A stretch of DNA of 64,000 nucleotides from a virus. The position numbers and the translations under genes were made by a program. The notes beneath the pieces were generated by a model, which was given only the letters and a program-made list of their open reading frames with translations, had not been told where the DNA came from and did not search any database. The stretch spans positions 974 to 64,973 of IMG/VR virus record IMGVR_UViG_2786546475_000019, one strand, 5' to 3'. Numbering within the stretch: the first letter of the stretch is position 1; the number at the start of each line of letters is the position of its first letter. Of this stretch, positions 101-63,412 are shown one piece after another.

Positions 101-219
101 CTAACATGTTCGCCATCTTTGGTCGGCCTGTCCGCCCCAGCAAAAAGCCGGTTGATGTTTTGCCGCCCCAGGTGAAGGCCGGTTGTTGGGAGGTCGATCC
201 AGGTTATCATGTGGGTGTT

Positions 220-257
220 CAATTTTGCAACACCGACAAAAAAGTGTTGCAAAATTG
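220..257. repeat. Perfect 14-bp inverted repeat (caattttgcaacac / gtgttgcaaaattg) with a 10-nt spacer
   Basis: Seen directly in the sequence. Confidence 0.8.
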
Positions 258-360
258 AACACCCCCCTGAAAGTGGGGTGTGCGGTATCGCACACCCCCT
301 GAAAGTGGGGTGTGCGATACCGCACGTGCGGAACCGCACAGTGAGCGGTATCGCTCAGCT
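258..360. repeat. Two tandem ~33-bp units (acacccc-ctgaaagt-ggggtgt-gcggtatcgc), each forming a hairpin, followed by two short palindromes (gtgcggaaccgcac, gagcggtatcgctc)
   Basis: Direct repeat with internal stems. GCGGTATCGC occurs three times, once inverted. Confidence 0.7.
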
Positions 361-387
361 CAACTGCCCTATATTAGATACTTCGGT

Positions 388-404
388 GTAGTCAATTTGA
401 CTAC
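388..404. repeat. 17-bp palindrome gtagtcaatttgactac
   Basis: Seen directly. Confidence 0.7.
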
Positions 405-739
405 ATGATAGATCGGCGATTTTGCCTAAATCCAAGGCATCGCTGCCCACGGTATAGGCACAAGGATATTAGACGGTAAAAACCGACATATTGTGAGCTT
501 TCCAGATCGCTTTCCCGAAAACTAAGTGTCCAGTAACTATTTCAAAGTATTTTCACGCGGGGAAAACCGATGAATGGGAGCCGCAGACAGCGTGCCTAAA
601 ATTCAGGCAGGTATAATTGGGGCGTTCCAAGCGAACACGGGCAAGCCAAGCCAAATTCGGCACGCTTGTCAAGTTCCACGGGACTCGCTACACTGTATGC
701 TGTAGCGTTTGATCTTTGACAATTTGGTTTCTAGTTGGC

Positions 740-792
740 GGTTAAACTCGCTACGCGGTCCAAATATCGCGGACCACGTAGCGAGTTTAACC
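740..792 (+). promoter_or_regulatory. Long hairpin with a 16-bp outer stem (ggttaaactcgctacg / cgtagcgagtttaacc) and an inner GGTCC/GGACC stem, in the 5' region of ORF 856
   Basis: Perfect 16-bp inverted repeat seen directly. Confidence 0.6.
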
Positions 793-793
793 G

Positions 794-826
794 GGCTTGA
801 ACGGTGACAGGTTCAAGCCTATTTCA
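794..826 (+). terminator. GC-rich stem-loop (ggcttgaac-ggtgacag-gttcaagcc) followed by tatttcatt. This is a terminator-like or attenuator-like structure 30 bp upstream of ORF 856
   Basis: 9-bp perfect stem with a T-rich tail. Confidence 0.45.
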
Positions 827-855
827 TTAAATCCTTATTTGGAAGGAATACCACT

Positions 856-2217: not shown

Positions 2218-2267
2218 AAACCCTTAGCCGCGGACCGGTCCAATTTGGACCGGTCTATTTTTATGCC

Positions 2268-2334
2268 CTTGGAATATCAACTAGCTGCACGCAATATCAA
2301 ATAGCTGCACGCAATATCAACTAGCTGCACGCAA
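2268..2334. repeat. About 3.3 tandem copies of a 20-bp unit, (c/a)tagctgcacgcaatatcaa, i.e. iteron-like
   Basis: Direct reading. Copies start at 2281, 2301 and 2321, with a partial copy before. Confidence 0.8.
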
Positions 2335-2436
2335 ACCCGGTAGGGGTTTATCACAAGTCGTTGCACCCAGGAACAATACCGGGGTCCGTCGCCCTTAACG
2401 CGACGACACAAGCATGATATTTTGTGCCACGGTCCC

Positions 2437-2521
2437 CGGACCTAGCTACTCGGACCTAGCTACTCGGACCATGCACCCTGATCCACGGACCATGATCCAC
2501 GGACCACGGACCAAGCTACTT
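2437..2521. repeat. GGACC-rich repeat block: ggacctagctactc x2 and tccacggacc(a) x3
   Basis: Direct reading. Confidence 0.75.
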
Positions 2522-2565
2522 AGGCCAAAACACAATGATACTGGGGTAGGGGTTCAGAATCCGCC

Positions 2566-2577
2566 GGTCCGTGGACC
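2566..2577. promoter_or_regulatory. GGTCCGTGGACC 12-mer, identical to 50177-50188. Candidate protein-binding site
   Basis: Exact 12-mer recurrence. Related ggaccgtggacc occurs twice at 69-86. Confidence 0.5.
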
Positions 2578-2687
2578 AAAGAACTTCATTAACGTTTCCT
2601 CTGAAAATTATTTTCTGAATTTTTTCAGAATTAGGGGCAATCCGTCCTGCCCTCATTCGTATCTATAGGGAAGTCCACCTACTGATA

Positions 2688-3257
2688 ATGATAATGACAA
2701 GAAAACTTTATCCAGCATTACCTGATCACCCTGAGTACCGTTGCAAGTCCACGGCTCAAAACAAACATTGTACGTTTCTATCATGTGACGGACTTCGCAA
2801 ACTGAATCTGTACGACGATCCAAGGCAATCTGATAAATGTCCCAAGCACGCCGGACGACCACCAAGTAAACAAACAGCTTTGGCAAAGTACATGGACACC
2901 CATCCTCATGAGGTGGGTTATCATTTGCCGGACCAAGCACCAAAGGTGCATTCCCAATCCCGAAGTGTCGCCGAAGAACTTCACATTCTCCGCACACTTC
3001 TTCAAAACACCCTGAACCAATGCAATACGTCGCTCGACTTACTCGCTAACACTGAGCGAATGACAGTCTTAAGTGATAAGATTGCTAACTTGATAAAAAC
3101 TGACGTATTCCTCGAAGAAAAAACAAAGAACTCCTTGACGCGGGACCAAATCATGGCCGTGCTCTCGGAGATACAACAAGTGATAACTCGGCATTGTTCG
3201 CCGGAGCAGGTCGCACTGATCCGTCAAGACTTCCAAGAACTAACCATTCCTGACTAA
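2688..3257 (+). CDS. Hypothetical Cys/His-rich protein, possibly zinc-binding. First gene of the long + strand operon
   Basis: ORF of 189 aa. N-terminal CxxxxxxxxCxxxxC...CPKH pattern. Confidence 0.4.
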   Translation: MIMTRKLYPALPDHPEYRCKSTAQNKHCTFLSCDGLRKLNLYDDPRQSDKCPKHAGRPPSKQTALAKYMDTHPHEVGYHLPDQAPKVHSQSRSVAEELHILRTLLQNTLNQCNTSLDLLANTERMTVLSDKIANLIKTDVFLEEKTKNSLTRDQIMAVLSEIQQVITRHCSPEQVALIRQDFQELTIPD

Positions 3258-3268
3258 CCTCAGTTACT

Positions 3269-3574
3269 ATGCCAAGTCACATAAATCCAAATCGCATCAA
3301 ATCAGAGACGATGTTCGCCGGAGCACAGAACATCAACATTATCACTACGGAATCCAGCGTCACGCTCCGTGCTCCAGATGATACAACTCAATCGCTCACG
3401 CCAACCGGAACCCATCCAAATAAAGTAATCTCAGCAACCCTCGATCAAGCAGGTTTCTACACCGTAGACGGTCACATTGGAAAAGTCCTTGTGCTTGTTT
3501 CCACTTATGATGAAACCTACGGAGCTGCTTACAGAGGAACGGGACTCACCCCAGTAGTAGGCCAAGACGCCTAA
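3269..3574 (+). CDS. Hypothetical protein
   Basis: ORF of 101 aa in the operon context. Confidence 0.35.
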   Translation: MPSHINPNRIKSETMFAGAQNINIITTESSVTLRAPDDTTQSLTPTGTHPNKVISATLDQAGFYTVDGHIGKVLVLVSTYDETYGAAYRGTGLTPVVGQDA

Positions 3575-3585
3575 CCAAACAAACC

Positions 3586-5217
3586 ATGTCATACGCAGAC
3601 GAAACAACAGCAAAAGCAGCCGTAGCAAATGCCATTGGCAACGCAACAAGCGTCGATCCAGTGAGCAATACGGAACATGCTGACGTTCTTGATAATTTGA
3701 TCGAGAACATCTTCGCCGCTGATGGTATCACTGTGTATTTCGCCGAACCTCTGTCGGGACTTGGCGATGACGGCGACGTCACAATCTACGAAAACAAAAT
3801 CTACTCGAAAGCTGCCGGAACATGGTCCGAGGAACTTGAATTAACAAGCTGGACTTTCAATACTGCTGATCCTCCCACGTCCACGTCTCACACTTATGCA
3901 ATCTCGACAACCGGCCAATTATACGTAAACGTCGCCGGAACATGGACCTTGCAGCAGTTATCATTAGGCAAATACAAAGGTGCTCACTCAACCACCACAA
4001 AGTATTACGCCAATGATATTATCCTCTACTCAGGGGAATTGCAGTACGCTAACAGCACGCACAATCCTAAGACATATGACGCCGCAGACTGGACTTCGCT
4101 ACCTACTGCGTCATCAACCCACGTACTCCACGATGATATCTCAACACTTCCTTCCTCCCCGGACGGTTACACGCTTGAACTATATGACGGGATCGGCGAG
4201 GGGATGCTCTTTGAGCGGGTATCAAGTGCGTGGGTTTACCGAACACAGACAACAACTCCAGTTGTTGACCTAACCTCTGGCAACGCTTCAACGATTGCAG
4301 CATATTTGTCCGCTGGTCAAATATATCGGTACAATTTAACGACAGGCGAACCATACTACGTTGATAACGCCGGAGCACGGACCTCGCTTCCTCCAATCCA
4401 AACCGCCGTAACAGCCCTACCGTCAATTGTAGACGGTCCCGATCTATTGGTTTGGACCACGGACCCTGACGGGCATCGAGCGTACTTTAAAGGAGCTTCC
4501 GCGTACCAGAAGCTCCCACTTGTCCCAAGTATCCAAGAGTCCGATCAATCACTTTCGGAGAATCGGGAACTAGCGTACAACGCCCGAACACTATCATTCG
4601 ACGGTGACGGCACATTCCGCTTCGGAGACTTAAGCGACAACACCGACGGATATTATGCGGCCTTCAACTCCGGTGCGTTACAGTGGGCCAATGCTACACC
4701 GGAAACGAACCTCACGTCCATCACCCCTACCATTGTCAATTCGCAAAACCTAGCTCTGGTAAACGACGGCACTAGCAACAGTTTCACGTTGAAATACGCA
4801 GGAAGCCAAGATCAAGACTTTACGTTTCCAGCAGATCTTCCAGCTTTAGGTAATATTCTGGAAGTCACGGGCCTTGCAACAAGTTCCATTGTAGTAGGCT
4901 GGCGTAAGCCCGTAAAAGACTGGTTCACGCTAACCTCAGCCACCCCAACTGTGACAGTTGACGGCAATGATAGCAAACGCTTTAAACTTGACCCTGGGCA
5001 CACTCCAATTACAATTGCTTTCACTAATTGTGAGCAACATGATTTTGTTCTCCTCAAGATACGAGGTCACGCTACAAACTCAGTGTCAATGCCTGCCGGA
5101 GCAGACGGTGACGTTTTCTCTCTTAGTACGGATGATACAAAAGCAACTTTAGTCACAGCTATCATTGATGGTTCCGCCATCCATCTTGGCGTAATGAGGG
5201 ACGTATCATGGGCTTAG
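3586..5217 (+). CDS. Putative tail fibre or structural protein (543 aa, Thr/Ser/Asn-rich)
   Basis: Large ORF. The composition is typical of fibre proteins. It lies adjacent to a beta-helix protein. Confidence 0.4.
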   Translation: MSYADETTAKAAVANAIGNATSVDPVSNTEHADVLDNLIENIFAADGITVYFAEPLSGLGDDGDVTIYENKIYSKAAGTWSEELELTSWTFNTADPPTSTSHTYAISTTGQLYVNVAGTWTLQQLSLGKYKGAHSTTTKYYANDIILYSGELQYANSTHNPKTYDAADWTSLPTASSTHVLHDDISTLPSSPDGYTLELYDGIGEGMLFERVSSAWVYRTQTTTPVVDLTSGNASTIAAYLSAGQIYRYNLTTGEPYYVDNAGARTSLPPIQTAVTALPSIVDGPDLLVWTTDPDGHRAYFKGASAYQKLPLVPSIQESDQSLSENRELAYNARTLSFDGDGTFRFGDLSDNTDGYYAAFNSGALQWANATPETNLTSITPTIVNSQNLALVNDGTSNSFTLKYAGSQDQDFTFPADLPALGNILEVTGLATSSIVVGWRKPVKDWFTLTSATPTVTVDGNDSKRFKLDPGHTPITIAFTNCEQHDFVLLKIRGHATNSVSMPAGADGDVFSLSTDDTKATLVTAIIDGSAIHLGVMRDVSWA

Positions 5218-33403: not shown

Positions 33404-33612
33404 GCCAAAGCCAACTTGAAGCTTACGCCAGACAACGTAAGTTTAGGCCCAAGATGGAAAATGTTCAAATTTGTGAACAGTGCGACCACTTAATACGTGA
33501 TCGCTACTGTTCCAAATTTGGCAAGTGTCCTGACGCTCAAAAAGATTTCTTTAAAGCCCTTGAACGAAGTAAATGTCCTTTAGAGAAATTTCCGTCGCAG
33601 CTCAGCGAATAG
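33400..33612 (+). CDS. Small Cys-rich protein (CEQCDH...CSKFGKCPD)
   Basis: ORF of 70 aa, last gene of the + strand block. Confidence 0.3.
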   Translation: MSQSQLEAYARQRKFRPKMENVQICEQCDHLIRDRYCSKFGKCPDAQKDFFKALERSKCPLEKFPSQLSE

Positions 33613-33996
33613 AATTCTAACTTGCTTAGGAGTTAACTCTAACAAACGCCCGATTTCCGAATACGTATAGTATTGAAGTCGTAAACTTACAGCCCATCGC
33701 TCCTCGACAGTTAGCCTATCTAGGTCAAACTGATCGAGGAATTCTTCTGCACTTCTTGATAATTCTTCAATATCGCCTAACGCTTCGGTATCATTGTTTG
33801 TTTGCATTTTCTTTCGACGACGGTAAGCGTCAATACCTCTCGACCGTAGTAAGGTTCTTAAGTGTGAGATGAATTTCTTTTCCTCAACTAGCTCATGATA
33901 ATTCTCCCACGCTTGTAAAAATTCCAAAGATAGCGAGCAGTCAAATTTAGTTTCAAACTCTCGCAACAAGTAAACATAATCGTCGATCCTTCGCAT
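33580..33996 (-). CDS. Sigma-factor region-4-like HTH protein (possible ECF-type sigma or anti-sigma-related)
   Basis: C-terminal YSEIGRLLELTPKQVRILFAELRRKF resembles a sigma-70 region 4 HTH. Confidence 0.35.
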   Translation of the reverse strand: MRRIDDYVYLLREFETKFDCSLSLEFLQAWENYHELVEEKKFISHLRTLLRSRGIDAYRRRKKMQTNNDTEALGDIEELSRSAEEFLDQFDLDRLTVEERWAVSLRLQYYTYSEIGRLLELTPKQVRILFAELRRKFL

Positions 33997-37585: not shown

Positions 37586-38236
37586 TTAAACCATATTCAA
37601 AGTAATTGGAGGTTTGTCGCTTTTTAAAAGTTTAGCTAGCTTTTCTAACGCTCGCTTTTCAAGTTGACGAACTCTTTCTCGCGAGATATTAAGAGTTTCC
37701 CCAATAGTCTTAAGAGGAATCCCTTGGGCTCGTAGCCTCAAAACTAAAGCATCTCGACTATTTAACTCAAGAAAAGCTTTTTCTAGAGCAATAAGCTCCT
37801 CTTGCCATTCTATCAAATCCCTATCAAGACATTCTAAAGGTGTAACAGGGTTATTAAATAGCCCGTGTAAGGTTTGAAACATTGGAGCACGAGCTATAGC
37901 AGCTTTAGCTCTGTCAAGATGAGCTGGATTTGGAGATACTTTAATTAACTCCACCTTGGTTTTCATGTAAGTTATCATTCGTTGTTTCACCCACGGAGTG
38001 GCGTAAGTTGAAAACTGATAACCTTTACTAGGGTCAAATTTTTTGACCGCCTGACATAACCCACTCATTCCTTCTTGAATTAAATCGTCTAAATCAAGCT
38101 TAGAATTTTTCTTGGCAAAAGACACCGCTATCTTGATAACCAATCCTTGATTATCTAACACTAACCGATTGAGTGCTTCATCAGCTTCCTTTCTAGCAGA
38201 ATGATATTTTTGTAATAACTCGTCATTAGTATCCAC
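37586..38236 (-). CDS. Sigma-70 family RNA polymerase sigma factor (group 3/4-like, SigF/FliA-sized)
   Basis: Region 2: DLIQEGMSGLCQAVKKFDPSKGYQFSTYATPWVKQRM. Region 4: TIGETLNISRERVRQLEKRALEKL. Confidence 0.65.
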   Translation of the reverse strand: MDTNDELLQKYHSARKEADEALNRLVLDNQGLVIKIAVSFAKKNSKLDLDDLIQEGMSGLCQAVKKFDPSKGYQFSTYATPWVKQRMITYMKTKVELIKVSPNPAHLDRAKAAIARAPMFQTLHGLFNNPVTPLECLDRDLIEWQEELIALEKAFLELNSRDALVLRLRAQGIPLKTIGETLNISRERVRQLEKRALEKLAKLLKSDKPPITLNMV

Positions 38237-51284: not shown

Positions 51285-51629
51285 TCAGTCTCCTCTTATC
51301 AATTGATAAATTTCTTTGTAAGTATGTACTGGCATATTATACTTGTCCGCTATATCCTGCCAGTTCTCTTCCCACCAGCTAAAAGAATGACACTGACCCC
51401 CAACTTTCAACACTCCAAAGTCTTGGTTGACTTCTACTTTGCGGCCGTGTAAAATTCCGAGTGTTATCAGTTTGCCGTAGCCGTAGCCGTAGCCGTAGCC
51501 GTAGCCGTCGCCGTCGCCGTAGCCGTCGCCGTAGCCGTAGCCGTAGCCGTAGCCGTCGCCGTAGCCGTAGCCGGTCCCGTAGCCGGTCCCGTAGCCGGTC
51601 CCGTAGCCGTCGCCGTGGTTACTTAACAT
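51285..51629 (-). CDS. Gly-Tyr repeat protein: N-terminal (GYG/DGYG)n low-complexity region (~50 aa) plus a ~60-aa C-terminal domain
   Basis: RBS taaggaactatcaATG. Encoded by a (GCCGTA/GCCGTC)n hexanucleotide array at ~51470-51610. Confidence 0.45.
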   Translation of the reverse strand: MLSNHGDGYGTGYGTGYGTGYGYGDGYGYGYGYGDGYGDGDGYGYGYGYGYGKLITLGILHGRKVEVNQDFGVLKVGGQCHSFSWWEENWQDIADKYNMPVHTYKEIYQLIRGD

Positions 51630-54142: not shown

Positions 54143-54285
54143 TATCATTTGTGTCCCGCCACTGGCGGAAATGATATGATAGCTTACAGACCTACGGTCA
54201 ATCTATTCTATACTTAATATCGGCAATTGGGAAGTAAGAAAATAGATTATTTTTGAAAATAATCAAAACTTTATCATATCATTTT
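54143..54285. promoter_or_regulatory. Operator-like region. It has the palindrome TATCATTT-gtgtcccgccactggcgg-AAATGATA. It also has the inverted pair AAATGATATGATA (54169-81) and TATCATATCATTT (54273-85)
   Basis: Seen directly. The same architecture recurs at 59145-59359. Confidence 0.55.
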
Positions 54286-54628: not shown

Positions 54629-55396
54629 TTAACTCCCAAGAATATAAAGTGCTTCAACCACGGAAGATCGAATCTCGCCAGCAGATTGATAGATTCGATA
54701 CTCGTACTTTTCAGTCCATTCCTGAGCTTCCAAGTATGTGTTCTTGTAGTGATTGATAACAACAGTGCCTTGTCGGTCCTTGGCCCACGAAACAATTTCC
54801 TCAAGCGAGATCAGATCGAACCCTTGTGTCTCATCGTAAGGCGGGTCCAAGTAGAATAACGCATCGACACTATCATATGAAGCTAGCTTCTTCCAGTCCC
54901 AATTCTCGATTTGCCACTTGCTAATACGAGCACGAAGCAGGGGCCAGATTCTCATTTTACTGGCTACATTCGGCTGCTTCTGTGAGAAGTTGCGAGCGTA
55001 GTTAAGCCTCCGCCCCAAGTAAGACATAACCGCTGTCACGTACCACTTTGCTGCACGCTTCACGGGGTTACTTGATAGCTGCCAAGTCTTTTTGCAATGC
55101 AACCATTCTTCTTCGGAAGAAGGATGATACTTTTTAAGTTCTTCGACAAGCTCCTCGTAGTGGTTACGGAACGCTCGATAGAAGTCAATGATCCCGGAGT
55201 CTTTATCATTAAACACCATGTACGGGAACTGAGCCACGTTCAATGATACCATTCCTGTCCCGCCAAACACGTCAATAAATTTCTTGTGCGTGTCTCGCAT
55301 GTGGTTCAGAATAGGAAGAATATGTTGCAAGGCCCGTGCCTTAGACCCTATCATTCGAAACGGAGCTTCACGTTTCTTGAAGTCTTTATCAGTCAT
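54629..55396 (-). CDS. DNA N6-adenine methyltransferase, Dam family
   Basis: DVFGGTGMVSLNV (motif I, FxGxG) and YLDPPY (motif IV DPPY). Confidence 0.7.
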   Translation of the reverse strand: MTDKDFKKREAPFRMIGSKARALQHILPILNHMRDTHKKFIDVFGGTGMVSLNVAQFPYMVFNDKDSGIIDFYRAFRNHYEELVEELKKYHPSSEEEWLHCKKTWQLSSNPVKRAAKWYVTAVMSYLGRRLNYARNFSQKQPNVASKMRIWPLLRARISKWQIENWDWKKLASYDSVDALFYLDPPYDETQGFDLISLEEIVSWAKDRQGTVVINHYKNTYLEAQEWTEKYEYRIYQSAGEIRSSVVEALYILGS

Positions 55397-55979: not shown

Positions 55980-58586
55980 TTAAGTTGCCCTTTCTCCCTT
56001 AATCGTTTCCCTTTTAACACCGTCTGGAGTTTCAACAAAACGAAACCCGTTGTCTTTCGGAGCTTCATACGAGAAGCGAACATTGTAGATACATGTCTTT
56101 TGCATCTCGTCAATAGCTATCAAATACATTTCCGCTAGGTTCTGTTCGAACTTCTTACGATTTGCTCGCCCCCCGTCGTCCATGTAGTTCTTATACAGAA
56201 GTTGAAGCTCCACTTTTGATCCAGGCTGTTCTTGGAGCACGGACCGTGCAAAGAGTTCAACGTCGGTTCGGTTCAAGTCCGCAGCTTGCTCTTTATCAAC
56301 CGTATCCACAACAGGAACATTCAAACGCCCCTGAGTTGGCGGTATTTGATACGCTAACAAGGCATACAGAAACGCGGGAGCTTGAGCTTCCAGTTGTTCC
56401 AAAAGAAGTTTCTTTGGAATAACTTTATCTGGCTTCTTGGGTACATTGATAACCGTGATTCGGGTGTCTCCGGGAAGTATCGGACAGAACTCACGATTGT
56501 TCGCGGTGTGAATCCAATGCGACGTATTAGGTATCATGTAAGCGGGCTTGCCTTTTGTGTTGACTGAGATTACTTTGGACGTAACATAGTCTTTAACTTT
56601 TTGATAAACAGTGGAGTCCGAGTTCAAGTTAATCTCCTCAAGAACGCAAAGCACCGCCCCAGCAAGTTCACTGTTGAACGAGCTGACTAACGCGTTCTCC
56701 GCTCGAACGACACCGGGACTAAACAACAATGATAATGCTTCATGCAAAATCGACTTCCCGGTGTCTTGCTCCGTGGAATACAAAAACAGAAACGGCAAAG
56801 GTTCAAACGGTTGTTGTATCAATGACGCGACCCACGCAAACAGATAGTCGTGTCCTTTGCAAATACCGTTCTCCGTGAACCAATTATCCTTACGAACGTA
56901 TTGATCTAGAGAGTGTCCGATATGGTCCAGAATCTTCATCCAAAGATCAAAGTTTCCTTCTTCTGGAGTGTGTCGCAGTTGAGCAGCTCCCCGATTCCAT
57001 AAACGATTACCCGGATATTCAGACTCAAAGGGTCGTGAAACAATGTTCCAGGGCTTCATGATAGCTTCACCCTGCATCTGCTGAATCTCTTTAGTGTTCA
57101 TTCCTTGGCTTTTGAGACCGAGCGTCAGGTTGGCGATCGGTTCTTCGATCCAACCGTTATCATGCGTCTCAATAGCCCAACCGGCGTCCACGCTACCCAT
57201 AATCATGTGACGAATCTGCGTATTCGTGTCCACGTCATACGGGCTACCAGTACGAGACTCTTTTATCACTTTCAACCAACGTGTTCCTTTTGCGATCCAA
57301 CCTTCAATGCCGCCTGGGTCGCCTTTGATTTTCGGAATCTCAATTTTAAGCTTGTTTTCCTTTAGCTGAGTGACAGTTGCTTGACGAGCTATCAATACTT
57401 CGTCAATGGCTTGCATTTCATGTTGCTGGAAAAGCTTAGTCAATTTATGAGCAGGAAGCACCATTCCTTTTTTATCATCTTCTAACGCTCCTGAATCTTT
57501 CACCAAGGTCCAAAGCGGTGGAACATAATTCAAATACGTGCGAGTCCATCCGTTCTTCGTGGTCCACGATTCATGTTCCTTGGCTTCGTTGCCATATCGG
57601 TACACGGCCCATGCTCCGTGTGGAAGCGGATACGCGAAGCAGTTCTGTTTGTGGAGATCAGTTCCGTCACTGATAGTCTGGAAATCGCCTTTAAACCCGA
57701 GTTCTTTGGAAGCTTGCTCCAATAGTTTAGTGTGCGTGATAAACATCTTTCCTTCCGCGTTCCAGTAACCAAACGCGGAGTTGTTATTCATCCACTCAAG
57801 CAAACGCTCATGTTCTTCTTCAAGCGTCACGGACTGTTTGTGCTTGATAATTTCTTCCATACGGTCATCAGCATAAGAGTGTTTCTTCTTACCGCTCACG
57901 ACGCCAATATGATCTCGCCATCCCAGCGGCTCTTTGATATGGGCCTCAGCTTCCTTAATAATTTGAAAGCCGTTCTCTCCCGTTTTCCGTGACCATACCC
58001 ACATATTACAACCGAAAACATCAACTGCAAGGTCAAAGTCGAAACCAGTCTCAAGACATAGTTGACTCAGAACGCCGCGAGCAAGAGCAGCGTGTTCTGC
58101 CCGACTTGTCGTAGTGATAAGGTCTTCAAAGAAAACATATAAGTGGTAGCCAGCTCCACTTTTAGATCGTTGTACTCGCACCCAAGGTACGTTACACGCT
58201 CGTTGTTGAATATCAAGTAGATCAGTCTGCGTTAGCTTGTGCTTGTGCCGAGCTGAGTGGCCCACGATACCGTCAAAGTCGAAAGCAACATATCGCGAGA
58301 TGCATTGCCCAAAGTCCCACCCCGATAAACCAACCATTGAGGCGTGATCTTCCAGGCTGAACTTGATATTTCCTTCATCGTATTTGCCATCAATTCGAAA
58401 ATTCTTCCAGACTTGAACACCGTCAGTCCACTCCCGGTAGGTCCGACCTTTGTATTCCTTATCAACAGGCTCGCCGCCATCAGCGGCTACGTTTACTTGA
58501 ACTTCCATTGTAGGCGAGTATAACGCCGCCATGTGGGGTTCTGCGTTATCACGCAAGAATCGTTCTAAAGCTTCACTTTTACGCAT
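55980..58586 (-). CDS. Bifunctional primase-helicase: AEP/PrimPol-type primase N-terminal domain plus a D5/P4-alpha-like SF3 helicase C-terminal domain
   Basis: VAFDFDG ... SGAGYHLYVFF (AEP motifs). LYSTEQDTGKS Walker A. ATG at 58586 with a gagg RBS preferred over the TTG at 58592. Confidence 0.75.
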   Translation of the reverse strand: MRKSEALERFLRDNAEPHMAALYSPTMEVQVNVAADGGEPVDKEYKGRTYREWTDGVQVWKNFRIDGKYDEGNIKFSLEDHASMVGLSGWDFGQCISRYVAFDFDGIVGHSARHKHKLTQTDLLDIQQRACNVPWVRVQRSKSGAGYHLYVFFEDLITTTSRAEHAALARGVLSQLCLETGFDFDLAVDVFGCNMWVWSRKTGENGFQIIKEAEAHIKEPLGWRDHIGVVSGKKKHSYADDRMEEIIKHKQSVTLEEEHERLLEWMNNNSAFGYWNAEGKMFITHTKLLEQASKELGFKGDFQTISDGTDLHKQNCFAYPLPHGAWAVYRYGNEAKEHESWTTKNGWTRTYLNYVPPLWTLVKDSGALEDDKKGMVLPAHKLTKLFQQHEMQAIDEVLIARQATVTQLKENKLKIEIPKIKGDPGGIEGWIAKGTRWLKVIKESRTGSPYDVDTNTQIRHMIMGSVDAGWAIETHDNGWIEEPIANLTLGLKSQGMNTKEIQQMQGEAIMKPWNIVSRPFESEYPGNRLWNRGAAQLRHTPEEGNFDLWMKILDHIGHSLDQYVRKDNWFTENGICKGHDYLFAWVASLIQQPFEPLPFLFLYSTEQDTGKSILHEALSLLFSPGVVRAENALVSSFNSELAGAVLCVLEEINLNSDSTVYQKVKDYVTSKVISVNTKGKPAYMIPNTSHWIHTANNREFCPILPGDTRITVINVPKKPDKVIPKKLLLEQLEAQAPAFLYALLAYQIPPTQGRLNVPVVDTVDKEQAADLNRTDVELFARSVLQEQPGSKVELQLLYKNYMDDGGRANRKKFEQNLAEMYLIAIDEMQKTCIYNVRFSYEAPKDNGFRFVETPDGVKRETIKGERAT

Positions 58587-59017
58587 TAACAAACCTCATT
58601 AACAAATTGATATCATTTTCGATAACAGATTCGAGAAAGCCCGAAACAACCAGACTTCACCCTATAGCTACGAGTGGCGGGATATCGGATTGCCCCACAA
58701 AATGAAAATAAATCGAGTTAATGGAAATTGATACGAAACTTTAATGACGTTTCCAGTGCAGCGTTATCATTATTCTCTCACGTACGCGAAGCCATTAACG
58801 TTTTTGATACTCAAACCTTTAATTTAAGCTTCTACTTCTTATGGGTACGAGGTGAAAGTAAAATATAGTAGTAGTGTAAATATTATAAGGATTTCAGCCG
58901 CTCAGGCGAGCTTCTGATAAGAAAACGTTAATGAGCCAAATTTTACGTTAAATTGGTATGTTTCGACGGGAATTGATACCGTCTCACTGCTCTCCTCCCG
59001 AACCTTGCATCTTGGCT

Positions 59018-59059
59018 CACGCTACACGTATCACGCTACACGTATCACGCTACACGTAC
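59018..59059. repeat. cacgctacacgtat x3 tandem 14-bp repeats (iteron-like), followed by the ACGT-rich palindrome tacgcgta
   Basis: Seen directly. Confidence 0.85.
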
Positions 59060-59144
59060 GCGTAGCACGTGGGTACGTGCCAGGGCCAAAGACCTTGAGT
59101 TCTCTTTTAAGTCTCGGAACTGACGTGTAAATTAGTAAGCGGTT

Positions 59145-59359
59145 ATCATTTTGCGTGAGCAAATGATAATTCTCGCGTGCTCCCGCGTGTCCCGCACGTG
59201 CGACTATTTAAATACGCGACGTGCGTAAATGATATGATACATGGTTTTCAAAATACTTGAAAATATTTTCAAAATACGGGGCAATCCTGCCCGGTTTTAT
59301 TCGTAGCTATAGGGGGAAAGTAGACTGTTTTACTTTCCAAAACGACTATCATATCATTT
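59145..59359. promoter_or_regulatory. Operator-like region. It has the palindrome TTATCATTTtgcgtgagcAAATGATAA (59144-69). It also has the inverted pair AAATGATATGATA (59227-39) and TATCATATCATTT (59347-59). Inside it are the 16-bp palindrome ttgaaaatattttcaa and two copies of ttttcaaaatac
   Basis: Seen directly. Same architecture as 54143-54285. Confidence 0.55.
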
Positions 59360-60403
59360 GTGGAGAAGTCCAACATGGCAGAAGAAACTCAAGCTACCGA
59401 AACTATCATTTCAGAAGGATTGACTCAAGAGCAGTTCGAATCCGTGGGTAGCGACATTCAGGCGATTTCTATCAATGAGATCACCGTCCCTGAAGTTAAG
59501 CTTCGTGGCGTGAACACCGAAGGGGAAGAATACTTGGAACTCAAGGATTCTATCAAATCGCAAGGACTGTTGCAGAACATTACTGTACGTCCCGTCGAAA
59601 TCGCTGGCAAGCAAGGCTACGAACTTATCACTGGGCTCCAGCGATATACTGCTTGCAAGGAACTCGGACATGAGACTATCGACGCTCGTGTGAAAGAAAT
59701 GTCCGAGCAAGAAGCTTGGTTGTGGATGATCCACGAAAACACTCAACGTGTTACGCAAAAAGCGTCAGATATCACCAAGCTCTTGAAGCGTCTGATCGCC
59801 AAAGATCCAACGATGTCTATTCCACGACTCGCGAAGCTTTTGTCGAAGTCCGTGCCCCAAGTACAGAACTATCTGGCACTTGATAAACTGACCGACGAGG
59901 CAAAGGAATTGGTCGATGATGAAACCATCGGTTTGACCAACGCAGTTGCTCTCGCCAAGCTCCCACCTGAGGAGCAGGAAGACTTGCTTGCTGACGCGTC
60001 AACAATGACCGTTGCTGAATTTGTTCCACTTGTAAACGAACGAAAAGAAAAGGTTGATCAAGCCAATCGTGAAGCTCGTGAACAGGAAAAGAACACGTTT
60101 TCTCCGAAACCAAAAGCTCGCAAGAAAGACGATCTCGTCACCGAGCTTGGAATTATCATGGGCACGGAGACTGGCACTTCGCTTCTTATGGAGTGCTTGA
60201 ACGGTCAGGATGTTGATACTTCCAACCAGAATGTCAAGGCAGTTATCACTCAGACAATGGAGTGGGTCCTGAACCTTGATCCAGCGTCCGTCGACGCTCA
60301 ACGAGCGAAATGGGAAGACGCCAAAAAGAAGCGGGAAGAACGAGAAAAAGCGAAAGCTGCCGCTCGTGCCGAACGTGAAAAGGCGAAAGCCCTGGAAATC
60401 TAA
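59360..60403 (+). CDS. ParB-like N-terminal domain protein with a highly charged KE-rich C-terminal tail
   Basis: YELITGLQRYTACKELG matches the ParB GxxRxxA box. RBS ggagaag. Confidence 0.55.
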   Translation: MEKSNMAEETQATETIISEGLTQEQFESVGSDIQAISINEITVPEVKLRGVNTEGEEYLELKDSIKSQGLLQNITVRPVEIAGKQGYELITGLQRYTACKELGHETIDARVKEMSEQEAWLWMIHENTQRVTQKASDITKLLKRLIAKDPTMSIPRLAKLLSKSVPQVQNYLALDKLTDEAKELVDDETIGLTNAVALAKLPPEEQEDLLADASTMTVAEFVPLVNERKEKVDQANREAREQEKNTFSPKPKARKKDDLVTELGIIMGTETGTSLLMECLNGQDVDTSNQNVKAVITQTMEWVLNLDPASVDAQRAKWEDAKKKREEREKAKAAARAEREKAKALEI

Positions 60404-60487
60404 ATTGATAGTTTCAATTTAGTTTCAATTTAGATTCCATCTGATACTTCAATTTTAAACTTCAACTTCAATTTAAAAGGACATTTT

Positions 60488-61442: not shown

Positions 61443-63412
61443 GAAATTCACACAAAGGGATAAACGTCATCCGCCCCAGCTTAATGAGTAAGCTGGCAGA
61501 AGGTCCAGTACGTCTAAAGCTCACGTACCAAGGCCGACGTTATCCTATGACGTTCAACATCAACAGCGATGCCACTGAAATATCAATTAAGTTCCCCTTC
61601 TCAAGAAAAGGGCTTGAGCTGGTCAAGACTCGCTTCGGGGGACGTAAATGGGACAAAACCAATGAGCGTTGGACCATGCCGCTCACAATGCGTAACTTGT
61701 TCCTAATGGACCTACTCTCAGGAGGCAAACCTCATTTAAATTGGCGTCGTGAGGAAGACTACACCGACTTTATCAAAGAGTTCTGGGCTCAACGAGATAA
61801 ACCTTTCGAGTGTGAATTGTTTCAACATCAGATTGAAATGATAAATCTTGCTCTCAACTCTCGACACGTAATCCTGGCCGCAGATATGGGCCTTGGCAAA
61901 ACGTTAACGGCAATCGTTGTTATGGAGATTCTAGGAATTCCCAAGTGTACTTGGGTGGCTCCTAATGCTCCGTTAGCTCAAGCAAAGAACGAGTTTCGAG
62001 ATTGGCGAACACTGACTCAGGCTCGGTGGCTCACGTATCGTGGAGCCGTAAAATGGCAAAACGAATACACTGGTAAAGCTCCGAAAGCTTTTATCATTGA
62101 CGAATCTGCCTACATTAAAAACAAATCACAACGAACAGATGCTTGTTTGTACATTGCCGACTGCGTACGAGAGGAGCATGGCCTGGACTCATTAATCCTG
62201 CTCCTGTCGGGTAAACCAGCTCCTAAGTCCCCACCTGATTGGTTTAACCAAGTGGAAGCAATTTGTCCCGGAGCTATCAACGAGAATTCAAAATATACTC
62301 TTGAACGTCGCTTAGGTCTTTGGAAACAATCTGAATACGGCGAGTTCCAAGAACTTGTTACTTGGTATGATAACGAAGATAAGTGTGCCCATTGCGGGGA
62401 GATTAAACTTCACCCTAACCATCAAGAGCTTGACTTCGAAGAATTTATTCGTCACGGCTCTACTGGCGAACTAGCCACGTATGAGCGTCACGAATTCCAA
62501 CCGTCGGTAAACGAAGTTATCAAGTTCGGTCAACGGCTTAATGGCTTTTGTGGTGTGTGGCAAAAAGAAGATTGCACTGACTTGCCGCCAAAGCAATTCC
62601 ACGTGGAACAACTCGTTGTTACTCCTGAAATGTTGAACTTAGCTAAGTCTTACATGGCGAAAGCAACATCAGGTTCCGAGTCTTTGATATTTTTACGAAC
62701 ATTATCTGATGGTTTTGTTTACCAGAAGATACCAACCGATCAACTTGCTGTATGCCAAGGGTGTCATGGCGAAAAGCAAGTCGAAATGATAGACCCTGAC
62801 ACTAACGAAACGTTTTGGGCTGATTGTCACACGTGCCACGGTGAAGGATCAGTGCCGCTTATTGAACGAGTCTATCAAACGTACCCAACACCTAAGTTGG
62901 ATTACTTACACAAGTTACTTGAACTTCATAAGGAGACTGGACGATTTGTGACATTTGCAGCTTTCCAAGCATCAGTAGACATCATTACCAACTTTGCATT
63001 GCAAAAGAATTGGCAAGTGATACAAGCTGATGGGCGAGGCTGGATGTTCCACAAAGGTATTGATAACGTTGCTAAGATGAAGAAAGGGGAAATGCTAGAT
63101 TACTTCCAGAAAGGCCCGGACGACCGCGTATTATTCGTAGGTCAACCCGGAGCTGCTGGTAGTGGATTGACATTGCATCGCTCACCCGGAGTCTTCTTTT
63201 ACTCCAATGATAACGTACCGAATAACCGGTTTCAAGCTATTGATCGAGTTCATCGTATTGGTATGCGTGACGATGGTGGTCACGTCTACGATTGTTTGTG
63301 TTTACCGTCGGATAAACGTATTTTGTCCACGTTAAATAATTCAGAACGATTATCATCTATTACTCTTGACCAGTTGAAGAAGGATTATGAGCACTACCAC
63401 CCCACAAATTGA
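61415..63412 (+). CDS. SNF2-family helicase with an inserted CxxC...CxxC zinc finger
   Basis: ILAADMGLGKT (motif I), IIDESAYIKN (II), LFVGQPGAAGSGLTLH, QAIDRVHRIGM (VI). Confidence 0.7.
   Translation: MDQARLHEIRNSHKGINVIRPSLMSKLAEGPVRLKLTYQGRRYPMTFNINSDATEISIKFPFSRKGLELVKTRFGGRKWDKTNERWTMPLTMRNLFLMDLLSGGKPHLNWRREEDYTDFIKEFWAQRDKPFECELFQHQIEMINLALNSRHVILAADMGLGKTLTAIVVMEILGIPKCTWVAPNAPLAQAKNEFRDWRTLTQARWLTYRGAVKWQNEYTGKAPKAFIIDESAYIKNKSQRTDACLYIADCVREEHGLDSLILLLSGKPAPKSPPDWFNQVEAICPGAINENSKYTLERRLGLWKQSEYGEFQELVTWYDNEDKCAHCGEIKLHPNHQELDFEEFIRHGSTGELATYERHEFQPSVNEVIKFGQRLNGFCGVWQKEDCTDLPPKQFHVEQLVVTPEMLNLAKSYMAKATSGSESLIFLRTLSDGFVYQKIPTDQLAVCQGCHGEKQVEMIDPDTNETFWADCHTCHGEGSVPLIERVYQTYPTPKLDYLHKLLELHKETGRFVTFAAFQASVDIITNFALQKNWQVIQADGRGWMFHKGIDNVAKMKKGEMLDYFQKGPDDRVLFVGQPGAAGSGLTLHRSPGVFFYSNDNVPNNRFQAIDRVHRIGMRDDGGHVYDCLCLPSDKRILSTLNNSERLSSITLDQLKKDYEHYHPTN

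What the first reader, a model, noticed from the sequence alone, without database searches (positions are those of the whole stretch)
58587..59359. 773-bp divergent intergenic region with iterons and nested palindromes, a candidate replication origin or genetic switch
The region lies between the primase-helicase gene and the ParB-like gene. It contains cattaacaaa x2 at the primase start, AT-rich tracts, and 3 x 14-bp tandem cacgctacacgtat repeats followed by ACGT-rich palindromes (tacgcgta, cacgtgggtacgtg). It also has cccgc(g/a)(t/c)gtg direct repeats, the AAATGATA operator set, the 16-bp palindrome ttgaaaatattttcaa and two copies of ttttcaaaatac. Origins of phages that encode primase-helicases commonly lie in or beside that gene. 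The iteron-plus-AT-rich layout fits an ori. The divergent layout also fits an early/late switch region.
Basis: partly seen in the sequence, partly recalled or inferred. Interest (0 to 1): 0.55.

Follow-up and report, generated by a model that had tools for sequence, protein, structure and literature searches.

The report
Twin-promoter replication control region, possible origin
This 788-bp gap between a phage's primase-helicase gene and a ParB-like gene holds two mirror-image promoters that fire outward, plus short repeated "TATCA" boxes that most likely bind a phage protein; it may also be the replication origin, but that is not proven.

Summary
The anatomy differs from what was proposed.

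- **Mirror symmetry.** The ~130 nt next to each gene are inverted copies of each other.
- **Promoter-like motif.** Each copy carries an exact bipartite motif, GGGGCAATCC-N13-TCGTA(G/T)CTATAGGG. It occurs only three times in 68.6 kb, and each copy heads one of the three large operons.
The TTTTCAAAATAC repeats and the 16-bp palindrome are the AT-rich upstream element of the ParB-side copy. "cattaacaaa x2" is the primase ribosome-binding site and start codon.
- **Boxes.** The "AAATGATA" boxes are tandem TATCA pentamers. In 103 relatives the same ParB/primase gap is conserved (median 400 bp). It is mirror-symmetric and carries an equivalent box, AATCAAATCA, 113 times in the gaps and 0 times in 757 kb of flanks.
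- **Origin evidence.** Inverted double pentamers flanking AT-rich DNA, beside a gene whose predicted fold matches SaPI self-loading primase-helicases, fit a SaPI-type origin. The GC-skew minimum falls here but is confounded by the gene-strand switch.
- **14-bp repeats.** The repeats and ACGT palindromes are lineage-specific, and their role is unknown.
- **Unexplained.** TATCA is 3.3-fold over-represented across the whole window.

No experiment exists for this uncultured marine phage.

The parts
55980..58586 (-). Primase-helicase gene (868 aa): AEP primase, SF3/D5-like helicase, and a C-terminal helix/strand pattern that looks like a winged helix.
   Evidence: Pfam DUF5906 and a weak AEP hit; PHROG 'DNA primase'. 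The AlphaFold model has mean pLDDT 84. Foldseek hits are the NrS-1 C-terminal region, SaPI5 primase-helicase 7OLA and PriRep1-dsDNA 7PDS.
58584..58606 (-). On the sense strand this reads TTTGTTAATG-AGG-TTTGTTAATG: the primase start codon (58586-58584), the Shine-Dalgarno GAGG (58597-58594) and an out-of-frame ATG.
   Evidence: sequence; family D11.
58605..58618 (.). Imperfect palindromic TATCA box AAtTGATATCAtTT, just upstream of the primase ribosome-binding site.
   Evidence: pair I12.
58636..58658 (-). 9-bp hairpin at the 5' end of the predicted primase leader.
   Evidence: MFE -15.8 kcal/mol, z -2.5.
58660..58696 (-). Promoter-like bipartite motif facing the primase gene: GGGGCAATCC-N13-TCGTAGCTATAGGG.
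   Evidence: Exact copy; one of only three in 68.6 kb. The two blocks are identical between copies while the 13-nt spacer is not conserved.
58793..58933 (.). AT-rich segment (27% GC at 58794-58893) bracketed by a perfect 12-bp inverted repeat, CATTAACGTTTT / AAAACGTTAATG.
   Evidence: pair I8; third least stable 100 bp in the window. CATTAACGTTT occurs exactly three times in the window, all in promoter regions.
59017..59058 (.). Three perfect tandem copies of TCACGCTACACGTA. Lineage-specific.
   Evidence: Absent from IMG/VR. Relatives' gaps are mostly too short to hold it.
59057..59080 (.). ACGT-rich palindromes TACGCGTA and GCACGT-GGGT-ACGTGC.
59143..59169 (.). Inverted TATCA boxes: TTATCATTT-N9-AAATGATAA.
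   Evidence: pair I21. The same TTATCATTT box opens the 54-kb module.
59174..59227 (.). GC-rich block: CGCGTG(C/T)(T/C)C x2.3, the palindrome CGCACGTGCG, TATTTAAATA, and TACGC-GACGT-GCGTA.
   Evidence: It is partly shared with the 54-kb module (GTGTCCCGC...).
59227..59239 (-). Double-pentamer box TATCATATCATTT, pointing left.
   Evidence: four exact copies in the window..
59245..59277 (.). AT-rich upstream element of the ParB-side promoter: TTTTCAAAATAC x2 overlapping the 16-bp palindrome.
   Evidence: Analogous TTTTCA-rich repeats lie upstream of the other two promoter copies.
59278..59314 (+). Promoter-like bipartite motif facing ParB: GGGGCAATCC-N13-TCGTAGCTATAGGG.
59315..59338 (+). 10-bp hairpin at the 5' end of the predicted ParB leader.
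   Evidence: MFE -16.6 kcal/mol, z -1.9.
59347..59359 (+). Double-pentamer box TATCATATCATTT, pointing right. It lies 2 nt upstream of the ParB Shine-Dalgarno sequence.
   Evidence: Together with 59227-59239 it brackets the ParB-side promoter symmetrically (pair I1).
59375..60403 (+). ParB1 gene (342 aa), first gene of the rightward operon: ParB1, a 222-aa protein, SNF2 helicase, ParB2 and, beyond the window, DNA polymerase A.
54143..54284 (+). Second copy of the box module, 5 kb away on the other side of the primase gene cluster: TTATCATTT-N18-AAATGATATGATA, then 90 bp at 23% GC, then TATCATATCATTT.
   Evidence: the boxes are exact while the DNA between them has diverged; it contains the least stable 100 bp in the window.
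2634..2693 (+). Third exact promoter copy, GGGGCAATCC-N13-TCGTATCTATAGGG. It is followed by the box TGATAATGATAATG, which overlaps the start of gene 2688-3257.

Best explanation
The gap is the control hub of the phage's replication module.

**Shown by sequence comparison**
- Two mirror-image modules face outward.
- Each module has an AT-rich upstream element, then the bipartite promoter-like motif GGGGCAATCC-N13-TCGTAGCTATAGGG.
- A leader follows, with a 5' hairpin and a TATCA box just before the ribosome-binding site.
- One module drives the primase-helicase operon leftward. The other drives the ParB1-to-DNA-polymerase operon rightward.
- A third copy of the motif drives the third large operon, at 2.6 kb.

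**Inferred**
- The TATCA boxes are tandem pentamers arranged in opposite orientation around AT-rich DNA. I infer they are binding sites for a phage-encoded protein.
- The most likely binder is the adjacent primase-helicase, acting through a C-terminal winged helix.
- The same sites would then serve as origin iterons, where the helicase loads itself as in SaPI islands, and as autoregulatory operators sitting on both leaders.
- Outward transcription from the twin promoters would underwind the DNA between them and help melting.
- The 14-bp repeats and ACGT palindromes in the centre are a lineage-specific addition with no assigned role.
For: **Promoter part**
- The 24 specified bases recur exactly three times in 68.6 kb, with a fixed 13-nt spacer that is not conserved. 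Each copy lies upstream of a major operon.
- The two sides of the gap align as inverted copies at 74% identity. The same holds in L008.
- 75 of 91 relatives show mirror symmetry at z > 4, against 2 of 91 coding-DNA controls.
- Relatives read in full show TTTACA-N17-TATATA-type promoters in the mirrored blocks.
- The geometry GCAAT-N16-CGTA resembles ECF-type promoters (PMC5758882). The phage encodes a 216-aa sigma factor with regions 2 and 4.

**Box part**
- TATCATATCATTT occurs exactly four times, as two inverted pairs.
- Tandem double pentamers occur only five times in the window, all in non-coding control DNA.
- The boxes are exact between the 59-kb and 54-kb modules while the DNA between them has diverged.
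- The family equivalent, AATCAAATCA, occurs 113 times in the gaps and 0 times in 757 kb of flanks. It sits between each promoter and its gene.

**Origin part**
- SaPI origins consist of penta- or hexanucleotide iterons, at least two on each side of an AT-rich centre, pointing in opposite directions. They are read by the Rep C-terminal winged helix (PMC9371898).
- The predicted primase-helicase fold matches SaPI5 PriRep 7OLA and PriRep1-dsDNA 7PDS across essentially the whole chain. The C-terminus has a helix/strand pattern like a winged helix.
- The detrended GC-skew minimum is at 59,055.
- The cumulative pentamer strand-skew minimum is at 58,974.
Against: - No transcription start, protein binding or replication data exist. 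The host is unknown and there is no cultured relative.
- The -35 block has AAT rather than the ECF-typical AAC, and the -10 block is a poor sigma-70 match. The responsible holoenzyme is therefore unidentified.
- The phage sigma gene lies about 20 kb downstream in one of the operons it would have to start.
- Boxes sit at ribosome-binding sites or start codons of three genes. This fits a pure repressor just as well.
- SaPI origins lie downstream of rep, not in its promoter.
- GC skew is confounded by the gene-strand switch at the same point.
- The change in pentamer skew is not significant (Fisher p = 0.17).
- Other repeat-rich non-coding regions (1-855 and 2218-2687) are equally good origin candidates.
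- Neither role explains why TATCA is enriched across the whole window.
Confidence: 0.55

Rival explanations
1. Pure transcriptional switch with no origin. The TATCA boxes are operators for a repressor that is not the primase-helicase, for example ParB1 acting like KorB, or a small unidentified regulator. It shuts both replication operons, the 2.6-kb operon and the 54-kb internal site.
For: - Boxes lie between promoter and ribosome-binding site, or over the start codon, at ParB1, the primase gene and gene 2688.
- Relatives carry a small inverted repeat, TGATT-N5-AATCA, right at both start sites.
- The two 13-mer boxes bracket the ParB-side promoter symmetrically, 120 bp apart, which is loop-like (pair I1).
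- ParB1 has an HTH_ParB domain and is the first gene after the boxes.
Against: - Spacing and order of the box halves vary from 0 to 45 nt among relatives. That is unusual for a dimeric helix-turn-helix operator.
- ParB/Noc relatives bind 16-bp palindromes, and none with that form is made of TATCA boxes.
- The 54-kb module keeps its boxes although its promoter copy has decayed.
Confidence: 0.35
2. The central 14-bp x3 repeats act as iterons, and together with the neighbouring AT-rich tract (58794-58893) they form a classical iteron-plus-unwinding-element origin.
For: - The repeats are perfect.
- The AT-rich tract is the third least stable 100 bp in the window and lies about 125 bp away.
- The detrended GC-skew minimum, at 59,055, falls inside the repeat array.
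- The site lies between divergent promoters.
Against: - There are only three contiguous copies with a 14-bp period, which is not in helical phase.
- No similar word occurs elsewhere in the window or in IMG/VR.
- Most relatives have gaps of 250-500 bp with no room for it.
- There is no DnaA-box cluster.
- The skew test is confounded by the gene-strand switch.
Confidence: 0.15
3. The boxes are clusters of the recognition site of the phage's D12-class (Dam/EcoRV-like) adenine methyltransferase at 54629-55396. Methylation state would gate promoter or origin use, as with GATC clusters at oriC and P1 oriR.
For: - All pentamers enriched in this family contain GAT/ATC: TGATA, TGATT, GATTA, GATTC.
- The methyltransferase gene is syntenic with the primase gene.
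- TATCA is enriched on both strands and beyond codon usage: 433 observed against 169 ± 10 in synonymous-codon shuffles.
- The top flank pentamer contains GAT/ATC in 40% of loci that have the methyltransferase, against 12.5% of loci without it.
Against: - The association is weak, with small numbers (47 versus 16 loci) and no control for phylogeny.
- No methylation data exist.
- Genomes are not normally enriched for their own methylation sites.
Confidence: 0.12
4. The gap is a ParB centromere: parS-type sites where ParB1 or ParB2 load for partition or for spreading-mediated silencing.
For: - The phage encodes three ParB_N-domain proteins.
- CACGTG-centred palindromes lie in the gap at 59066 and 59195. 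CGCACGTGCG recurs at 321 in the other large non-coding region.
Against: - None of the palindromes in the gap matches the 16-bp parS form.
- The best parS-like site, TTCCACGTGGAA, lies elsewhere, at 62597.
- CACGTG is not enriched in the window.
- ParB1 has GLQRYTA in place of the GERRxRA CTP-binding motif.
- These palindromes are lineage-specific.
Confidence: 0.1
5. The central 500 bp encodes a small RNA or micro-protein, or is an invertible or mobile element bounded by the 37-bp inverted repeats.
For: - Folds are moderately better than shuffled sequence (z about -2.6).
- Inverted repeats flank about 580 bp (pairs I2 and I4).
Against: - There is no Rfam hit even at E = 1, and no tRNA.
- No ORF has a ribosome-binding site.
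- The spacers inside the 'repeats' differ, so they cannot be recombination cores. A third copy heads another operon.
- Four contigs all show the same orientation.
Confidence: 0.05

Closest known systems
SaPI (staphylococcal pathogenicity island) replication origin with PriRep self-loading primase-helicase
   Same: - Short pentanucleotide repeats occur in at least two copies on each side of an AT-rich stretch, pointing in opposite directions.
- They lie next to the gene for a fused AEP-primase/SF3-helicase.
- The predicted fold of that protein matches 7OLA and 7PDS, and its C-terminus looks like a winged helix.
   Different: - Here the repeats lie upstream of the gene, inside the promoter and leader DNA of two divergent operons. 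In SaPIs they lie immediately downstream of rep.
- A second cluster lies 5 kb away.
- The pentamer is also enriched across the whole window.
- Binding has not been tested.
Phage P4 ori/crr with alpha protein (primase, SF3 helicase, winged helix)
   Same: - The initiator has primase, SF3 helicase and a C-terminal DNA-binding domain (PMC2777425).
- There are two separated clusters of short initiator-site-like repeats near the initiator gene, at 54.2 and 59.3 kb. The P4 ori/crr layout is from my own recall, not from a paper read here.
   Different: - P4 alpha has a DnaG-type primase, not an AEP primase.
- P4 uses octamer iterons.
- No evidence here shows that both clusters are required.
Divergent early control regions of temperate and lytic phages and plasmids (lambda PRM/PR-OR; RK2 KorA/KorB operators; pSC101 RepA autoregulation)
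   Same: - Back-to-back promoters with repeated operators between promoter and gene.
- The first gene downstream is a DNA-binding protein (ParB1).
- Initiators that also repress their own promoter are known (pSC101 and P1 RepA; from my own knowledge).
   Different: - The two promoter-leader modules are near-identical mirror copies, and this symmetry is maintained across a whole phage family.
- The operator is a tandem pentamer with variable spacing rather than a fixed palindrome.
- No repressor has been identified.
ECF-type (group 4) sigma-factor promoters
   Same: - Bipartite motif with a CGTA -10 element.
- 16 nt separate the -35 core from CGT.
- Highly conserved blocks with a free spacer.
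- The phage encodes a two-domain sigma factor.
   Different: - The -35 core is AAT, not AAC.
- The blocks are much longer (10 and 14 nt).
- The sigma-promoter pairing is untested.

Membership tests
SaPI-type PriRep origin | Six to twelve penta- or hexanucleotide iterons | tested here: met
   There are 15 TATCA/TGATA pentamers in 788 bp, against 2.4 ± 1.5 in shuffles of the gap. They include two tandem doubles and three further AAATGATA-type boxes. Caveat: the pentamer is also enriched across the whole window.
SaPI-type PriRep origin | At least two iterons on each side of an AT-rich centre, pointing in opposite directions | tested here: met
   TGATATGATA at 59230 and TATCATATCA at 59347 flank 107 bp at 30-40% GC. 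Copies at 54172 and 54272 flank 90 bp at 23% GC. Relatives carry AATCAAATCA/TGATTTGATT pairs on both sides of an AT-rich centre.
SaPI-type PriRep origin | Origin lies immediately downstream of the rep ORF | tested here: not met
   The boxes lie upstream of the primase-helicase start. The second cluster is 1.7 kb downstream of its stop, with four genes in between.
SaPI-type PriRep origin | Initiator is a self-loading SF3 helicase with a C-terminal winged helix that reads the iterons | tested here: inconclusive
   Fold match to 7OLA (E = 4.6e-9) and 7PDS across about 440-470 columns. The C-terminal secondary structure is H-E-H-H-E-E with pLDDT 86-92. The winged helix was not searched on its own, and binding cannot be tested here.
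Classical iteron origin (lambda or plasmid type) | Several 17-22-bp direct repeats in helical phase next to an AT-rich unwinding element, often with DnaA boxes | tested here: not met
   Only three contiguous 14-bp units. An AT-rich tract is present 125 bp away. There is no DnaA-box cluster. The array is not conserved in relatives.
Sigma-70-family promoter (ECF-like) | Two conserved blocks at fixed distance with an unconstrained spacer, upstream of operons | tested here: met
   Three exact copies with a 13-nt spacer that differs in each. All lie 25-75 nt upstream of the first gene of a long operon.
Sigma-70-family promoter (ECF-like) | -35 'AAC' and -10 'CGT' with a 14-17 nt spacer | tested here: inconclusive
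   CGTA is present, 16 nt after the -35 core, but the core reads AAT rather than AAC.
Sigma-70-family promoter (ECF-like) | Transcripts start a few nt downstream of the -10 block, and a cognate sigma factor is required | not testable with these tools
   A candidate sigma factor is encoded at 37586-38236. No transcript data exist.
ParB-parS centromere | 16-bp parS-type palindrome(s) bound by a CTP-dependent ParB | tested here: not met
   No parS-like 16-mer occurs in the gap. The best one in the window is at 62597-62608. ParB1 carries GLQRYTA instead of GERRxRA.
Invertible DNA switch | Inverted repeats with an identical crossover core, a nearby recombinase, and both orientations present in populations | tested here: not met
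   The spacers inside the repeats differ. No recombinase was found among the neighbours scanned. Four contigs are identical in orientation.
Known RNA families | Match to an Rfam covariance model, or to a tRNA or tmRNA | tested here: not met
   No hit at the gathering threshold or at E <= 1, and no tRNA.

The most novel reading that the evidence does not exclude
The pentamer (TATCA here, AATCA, TAATC or GAATC in relatives) may be the recognition word of the phage's own primase-helicase.

- Tandem, oppositely oriented copies around AT-rich DNA would form a two-part origin, at 59.3 kb plus a crr-like site at 54.2 kb. The enzyme would load itself there and throttle its own operons.
- Single copies have been selected throughout the genome: about 260 more than codon usage predicts, on both strands. 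They could serve as priming or reloading sites.
- The word would then co-evolve with the enzyme across a large uncultured family of marine and freshwater phages.
Probability: 0.2. Interest if true: 0.75.

Novelty: new variant of a known kind. Interest (0 to 1): 0.5.

Why it matters
This is the first anatomical description of the replication-control region of a widespread, entirely uncultured family of roughly 60-100-kb marine, freshwater and sediment phages. More than 400 relatives were seen in IMG/VR alone.

- **Testable parts list.** It gives three identical promoters, a candidate cognate phage sigma factor, and a 10-13-nt box that is exclusive to this gap.
- **Link to a solved system.** It connects the region to the SaPI PriRep self-loading helicases.
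- **If the boxes are iterons.** The family would show how an origin can be embedded in twin promoters.
- **If the window-wide enrichment is tied to the same protein.** It would be a rare case of a replication-protein recognition word shaping a whole viral genome.

If neither holds, the region is an ordinary, though unusually symmetric, divergent promoter-operator region.

Tried and rejected
- **Known RNAs.** Rfam at the gathering threshold and at E <= 1, and tRNA/tmRNA scans, found nothing.
- **Hidden small gene.** No ORF of at least 20 aa has a credible ribosome-binding site.
- **DNA similarity.** The gap has no match in 50,697 phage records.
- **Protein similarity.** Primase, TerL and ParB1 find only remote relatives.
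- **Exact-pattern scans of IMG/VR.** Neither the promoter motif nor the 14-bp array was found.
- **DnaA boxes.** No cluster.
- **Generic sigma-70 scan of relatives' gaps.** It did not discriminate. 29 of 90 gaps had promoters in both directions, against 20 of 90 shuffled gaps, and 38 of 90 coding controls had at least one hit. I therefore do not claim canonical sigma-70 promoters across the family.
- **TATCATATCATTT as a -10 element.** Reading it as TTTACT-N17-TATCAT is possible. It would put the start inside the ParB Shine-Dalgarno sequence, so I set it aside as secondary.
- **Invertible segment or MITE.** Rejected because the spacers differ, a third copy exists, and all four contigs show one orientation.
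- **Fur-box resemblance of TGATAATGATAAT.** Considered from memory only. It was not pursued because the relatives' AATCA boxes lack the conserved AT-rich inner positions of a Fur box.
- **Methyltransferase link to pentamer type.** Inconclusive.
- **L155, a primase gene without a neighbouring ParB.** Uninformative.
- **Loci with genes inserted between ParB and primase.** Their motif variants were too diverse to show which gene the boxes follow.
Full report
**1. Source and context**

The window is bases 1025-65024 of a 72,328-bp Tara Oceans contig (ERZ909121 k127_854715). NCBI carries its proteins under an 'Acidobacteria bacterium' MAG name. It is a phage. Terminase, portal and major head protein genes lie on the plus strand between 13 and 19 kb.

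A block of about 25 kb of replication and nucleotide-metabolism genes lies on the minus strand, from 33.6 to 58.6 kb. It includes thymidylate synthase, a Dda-like helicase, an exonuclease, a sigma factor, a CsrA homologue and DNA methyltransferases.

The finding lies between the 868-aa AEP-primase/DUF5906 SF3-helicase gene (55980-58586, minus strand) and a ParB_N + HTH_ParB gene (59375-60403, plus strand). To the right, the operon continues with a 222-aa protein, an SNF2-type helicase, a second ParB_N protein and, beyond the window, DNA polymerase A.

No cultured phage is close. The gap has no DNA match, and the primase-helicase and terminase find only remote protein matches of about 22-30% identity.

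**2. Checking the observation**

- The 14-mer TCACGCTACACGTA occurs three times in perfect tandem at 59017-59058.
- TTGAAAATATTTTCAA at 59257-59272 is the longest perfect palindrome in the window.
- TTTTCAAAATAC occurs twice.
- AAATGATA occurs five times in the gap plus once at 59404. The window has 27 copies against 2.6 expected.
- Only the 'cccgc(g/a)(t/c)gtg' repeat is looser than written. It is a 9-mer in 2.3 copies.

The gap is identical in four contigs from different Tara samples. It is therefore not an assembly artefact, and it is neither a length-variable nor an invertible locus in those populations.

**3. Mirror symmetry and a three-copy promoter-like motif**

Aligning the 150 nt next to the primase gene (reverse complement) with the 150 nt next to ParB gives 74% identity.

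The shared part has a particular form. Two blocks, GGGGCAATCC and TCGTAGCTATAGGG, are identical in both copies. The 13 nt between them share nothing.

A third copy sits at 2634-2670, upstream of the first gene of the long plus-strand operon that starts at 2688. It reads GGGGCAATCC-N13-TCGTATCTATAGGG and has yet another spacer. In 68.6 kb (window plus extension) these are the only three matches even with four mismatches allowed.

Two invariant blocks at fixed distance, with a free spacer, each upstream of a major operon, is the signature of a promoter. It is not the signature of a recent duplication or a recombination site.

All three copies are preceded by AT-rich DNA with TTTTCA(A/G)AA-type repeats.

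Both predicted leaders begin with a 9-10-bp hairpin and carry a TATCA box just before the Shine-Dalgarno sequence. 'cattaacaaa x2' is simply TTTGTTAATG-AGG-TTTGTTAATG on the sense strand, that is, the primase ribosome-binding site and start codon.

Which RNA polymerase holoenzyme reads the motif is unknown.
- It is a poor sigma-70 match.
- The geometry GCAAT-N16-CGTA resembles ECF promoters, which have -35 AAC, -10 CGT(A) and a 14-17-nt spacer (PMC5758882).
- The phage encodes a 216-aa sigma factor with regions 2 and 4 only.
- Against this, the -35 core is AAT, and the sigma gene lies far downstream in one of the operons concerned.

**4. Comparison with relatives**

The primase-helicase has hundreds of relatives at 37-47% identity in marine, freshwater, sediment and wastewater metagenomes. 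In 103 distinct loci that carry a divergent ParB hit upstream of the primase match, the estimated gap runs from 252 to 2279 bp, with a median of 400 bp. The window's 788 bp is therefore unusually long.

Mirror symmetry is a family trait. The ParB-side half, reverse-complemented, aligns to the primase-side half with z > 4 in 75 of 91 gaps. Only 2 of 91 coding-DNA controls reach that level.

In the gaps I read in full, the mirrored blocks contain TTTACA-N17-TATATA-like promoters. Each is followed, before its gene, by an inverted pair of the 10-mer AATCAAATCA / TGATTTGATT and a smaller TGATT-N5-AATCA inverted repeat at the ribosome-binding site. The centre is AT-rich.

The 10-mer occurs 113 times in 42 kb of gaps and not once in 757 kb of flanking DNA. 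AATCAAATCA is two tandem AATCA pentamers. The window's box TATCATATCA is two tandem TATCA pentamers, and L005 uses the same TATCA form.

By contrast, the central ~510 bp (58716-59226) has no counterpart in most relatives and none in IMG/VR. This stretch holds an AT-rich tract bracketed by a perfect 12-bp inverted repeat, then the 14-bp array and the ACGT-rich palindromes. L005 and L008 also have a GC-rich core with short repeats, but nothing there is alignable.

**5. A second box module**

TATCATATCATTT occurs exactly four times in the window, as two inverted pairs: 59227-59239 (-) with 59347-59359 (+), and 54169-54181 (-) with 54272-54284 (+).

The 54-kb site lies between two minus-strand genes, 5 kb away on the other side of the primase gene cluster. 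It aligns with 59143-59359 as a whole module: TTATCATTT, a GC-rich piece, AAATGATATGATA, about 100 bp, then TATCATATCATTT. The three boxes are exact. The DNA between them has diverged, and the promoter copy inside has decayed.

The 90 bp between the 54-kb boxes is the least stable DNA in the whole window, at 23% GC. Tandem double pentamers occur only five times in the window, all in these control regions or at the 2.6-kb promoter.

Conservation of the boxes without the promoter argues that the boxes have a function of their own.

**6. Origin or operator?**

The literature describes SaPI origins as follows: six to twelve penta- or hexanucleotide iterons, at least two on each side of an AT-rich centre, pointing in opposite directions. 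They are read by the C-terminal winged helix of a self-loading Rep or PriRep helicase (PMC9371898).

An AlphaFold model of the window's primase-helicase (mean pLDDT 84) matches several solved structures. These are the NrS-1 helicase region, the poxvirus and ASFV D5-type primase-helicases, SaPI5 PriRep (7OLA, E = 4.6e-9) and PriRep1 bound to dsDNA (7PDS), in the last two cases across essentially the whole target chain. Its last ~90 residues have a helix/strand order like a winged helix. P4 alpha and pRN1 ORF904 have the same three-part organisation (PMC2777425).

The box grammar and the neighbouring gene therefore fit a SaPI-type origin, with three caveats. The location (upstream, not downstream of rep) does not fit, the winged helix was not tested separately, and binding cannot be tested here.

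Those are also the points where gene orientation switches, so the result fails to refute but does not confirm. No DnaA-box cluster is present.

In favour of a purely regulatory role, boxes sit at the ribosome-binding site or start codon of ParB1, the primase gene and gene 2688. The two 13-mers bracket the ParB-side promoter symmetrically. Initiators that also repress their own promoter through the same sites are well known, so the two roles need not exclude each other.

My estimates:
- The twin-promoter reading is about 0.8 likely.
- The boxes being protein-binding sites is about 0.8 likely.
- The gap containing the origin is about 0.45 likely.
- The combined statement is 0.55.

**7. An unexplained window-wide signal**

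TATCA/TGATA is by far the most over-represented pentamer in the whole window. It occurs 496 times against 151 expected (z = 28) and is evenly spread.

On the sense strand of genes the two orientations are equal, at 213 and 220 copies. Within coding sequences there are 433 copies against 169 ± 10 in shuffles that preserve every protein and each gene's codon usage.

The word varies in step with the gap box across relatives.
- Flanks of relatives whose gap carries AATCAAATCA are most enriched for AATCA (z = 16).
- L005, which uses TATCA boxes, is enriched for TATCA (z = 12.6).
- The top flank pentamer equals a tandem pentamer in the gap in 12 of 80 loci, against 3.5 (maximum 8) in permutations. 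This test is not corrected for phylogeny.

Left of the gap, TGATA outnumbers TATCA on the plus strand, 255 to 190 (p = 0.002), in both transcription arms. To the right the counts are 36 to 39. The cumulative minimum is at 58,974, but the left-right difference is not significant.

Candidate explanations are listed below. None is established.
- A primase or helicase recognition word. AEP primase-polymerases can be sequence-specific; NrS-1 is an example (PMC8718748).
- The target of the syntenic D12 methyltransferase. All enriched words contain GAT. The association is weak.
- A coating DNA-binding protein.

**8. Verdict**

This is a divergent control region, built from two mirror-image promoter-leader modules and family-conserved pentamer boxes.

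It is a reasonable but unproven origin candidate, on the strength of the pentamer boxes and the PriRep-like neighbour.

As a kind of element it is a variant of known divergent promoter-operator and origin regions, found in an uncharacterised phage family. The link between the boxes and a window-wide enriched pentamer is the part that would be new.

Noticed in passing
whole window (1-64000): The pentamer TATCA/TGATA occurs 496 times against 151 expected (z = 28). It is evenly spread and lies on both strands. In coding sequences there are 433 copies against 169 ± 10 after synonymous-codon shuffling. Relatives are enriched for the pentamer that matches their own gap box (AATCA, TATCA, TAATC, GAATC).
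   Followed up: partly
window 1-855 and 2218-2687: Two large non-coding regions flank gene 856-2217 (453 aa, no family hit, ending in (GAAGCG)x7.5). They are packed with GGACC-containing repeats: 28 of the window's 154 GGWCC sites lie in the first 3 kb. They also hold a 32-bp x2 repeat (263-325), a 20-bp x3.1 repeat (2273-2334), and 14- and 21-bp repeats (2437-2513). This is an alternative candidate for the origin or the pac site.
   Followed up: partly
window 62597-62608: TTCCACGTGGAA (aATTCCACGTGGAACa) matches 14 of 16 positions of a palindromic chromosomal parS (consensus from memory). It lies inside the SNF2-helicase gene, just upstream of ParB2. Three other CACGTG sites (48123, 49920, 52272) have partly parS-like flanks.
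   Followed up: no
window 320-331 and 59193-59202: The palindrome CGCACGTGCG (CCGCACGTGCGG at 320) occurs only twice in the window, once in each of the two largest non-coding regions.
   Followed up: no
window 51474-51616: There are 23.8 tandem copies of the hexamer GCCGTA inside a minus-strand ORF (51285-51629), which implies a long dipeptide repeat. The copy number differs between contigs: the corresponding gene is 114 aa in L001 and 96 aa in L002.
   Followed up: no
window 37586-38236 (-), 33580-33996 (-), and 33.6-55.6 kb generally: The phage encodes a 216-aa sigma factor with regions 2 and 4, and a second protein resembling sigma region 4. The same 33.6-55.6 kb minus-strand block also gave hits to a CsrA homologue and to a ParB_N-domain protein (the third in the phage, with ParB1 and ParB2). 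I did not locate the individual genes for the last two.
   Followed up: partly
window 60404-60487: The short gap between ParB1 and the 222-aa gene holds TAGTTTCAATT x2.6 (60409-60437). It is the second least stable 100 bp in the window (23% GC).
   Followed up: no
window 2587-2597, 58793-58803, 58923-58933: The 11-mer CATTAACGTTT occurs exactly three times in the window, all in promoter-upstream DNA. Two of them form the perfect 12-bp inverted repeat that brackets the AT-rich tract in the gap.
   Followed up: partly
window 2001-5000: GC skew is strongly negative (-0.10 to -0.17) although the genes here are on the plus strand. This is unlike the rest of the plus-strand arm, so skew in this genome is not purely a coding-strand effect.
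   Followed up: no
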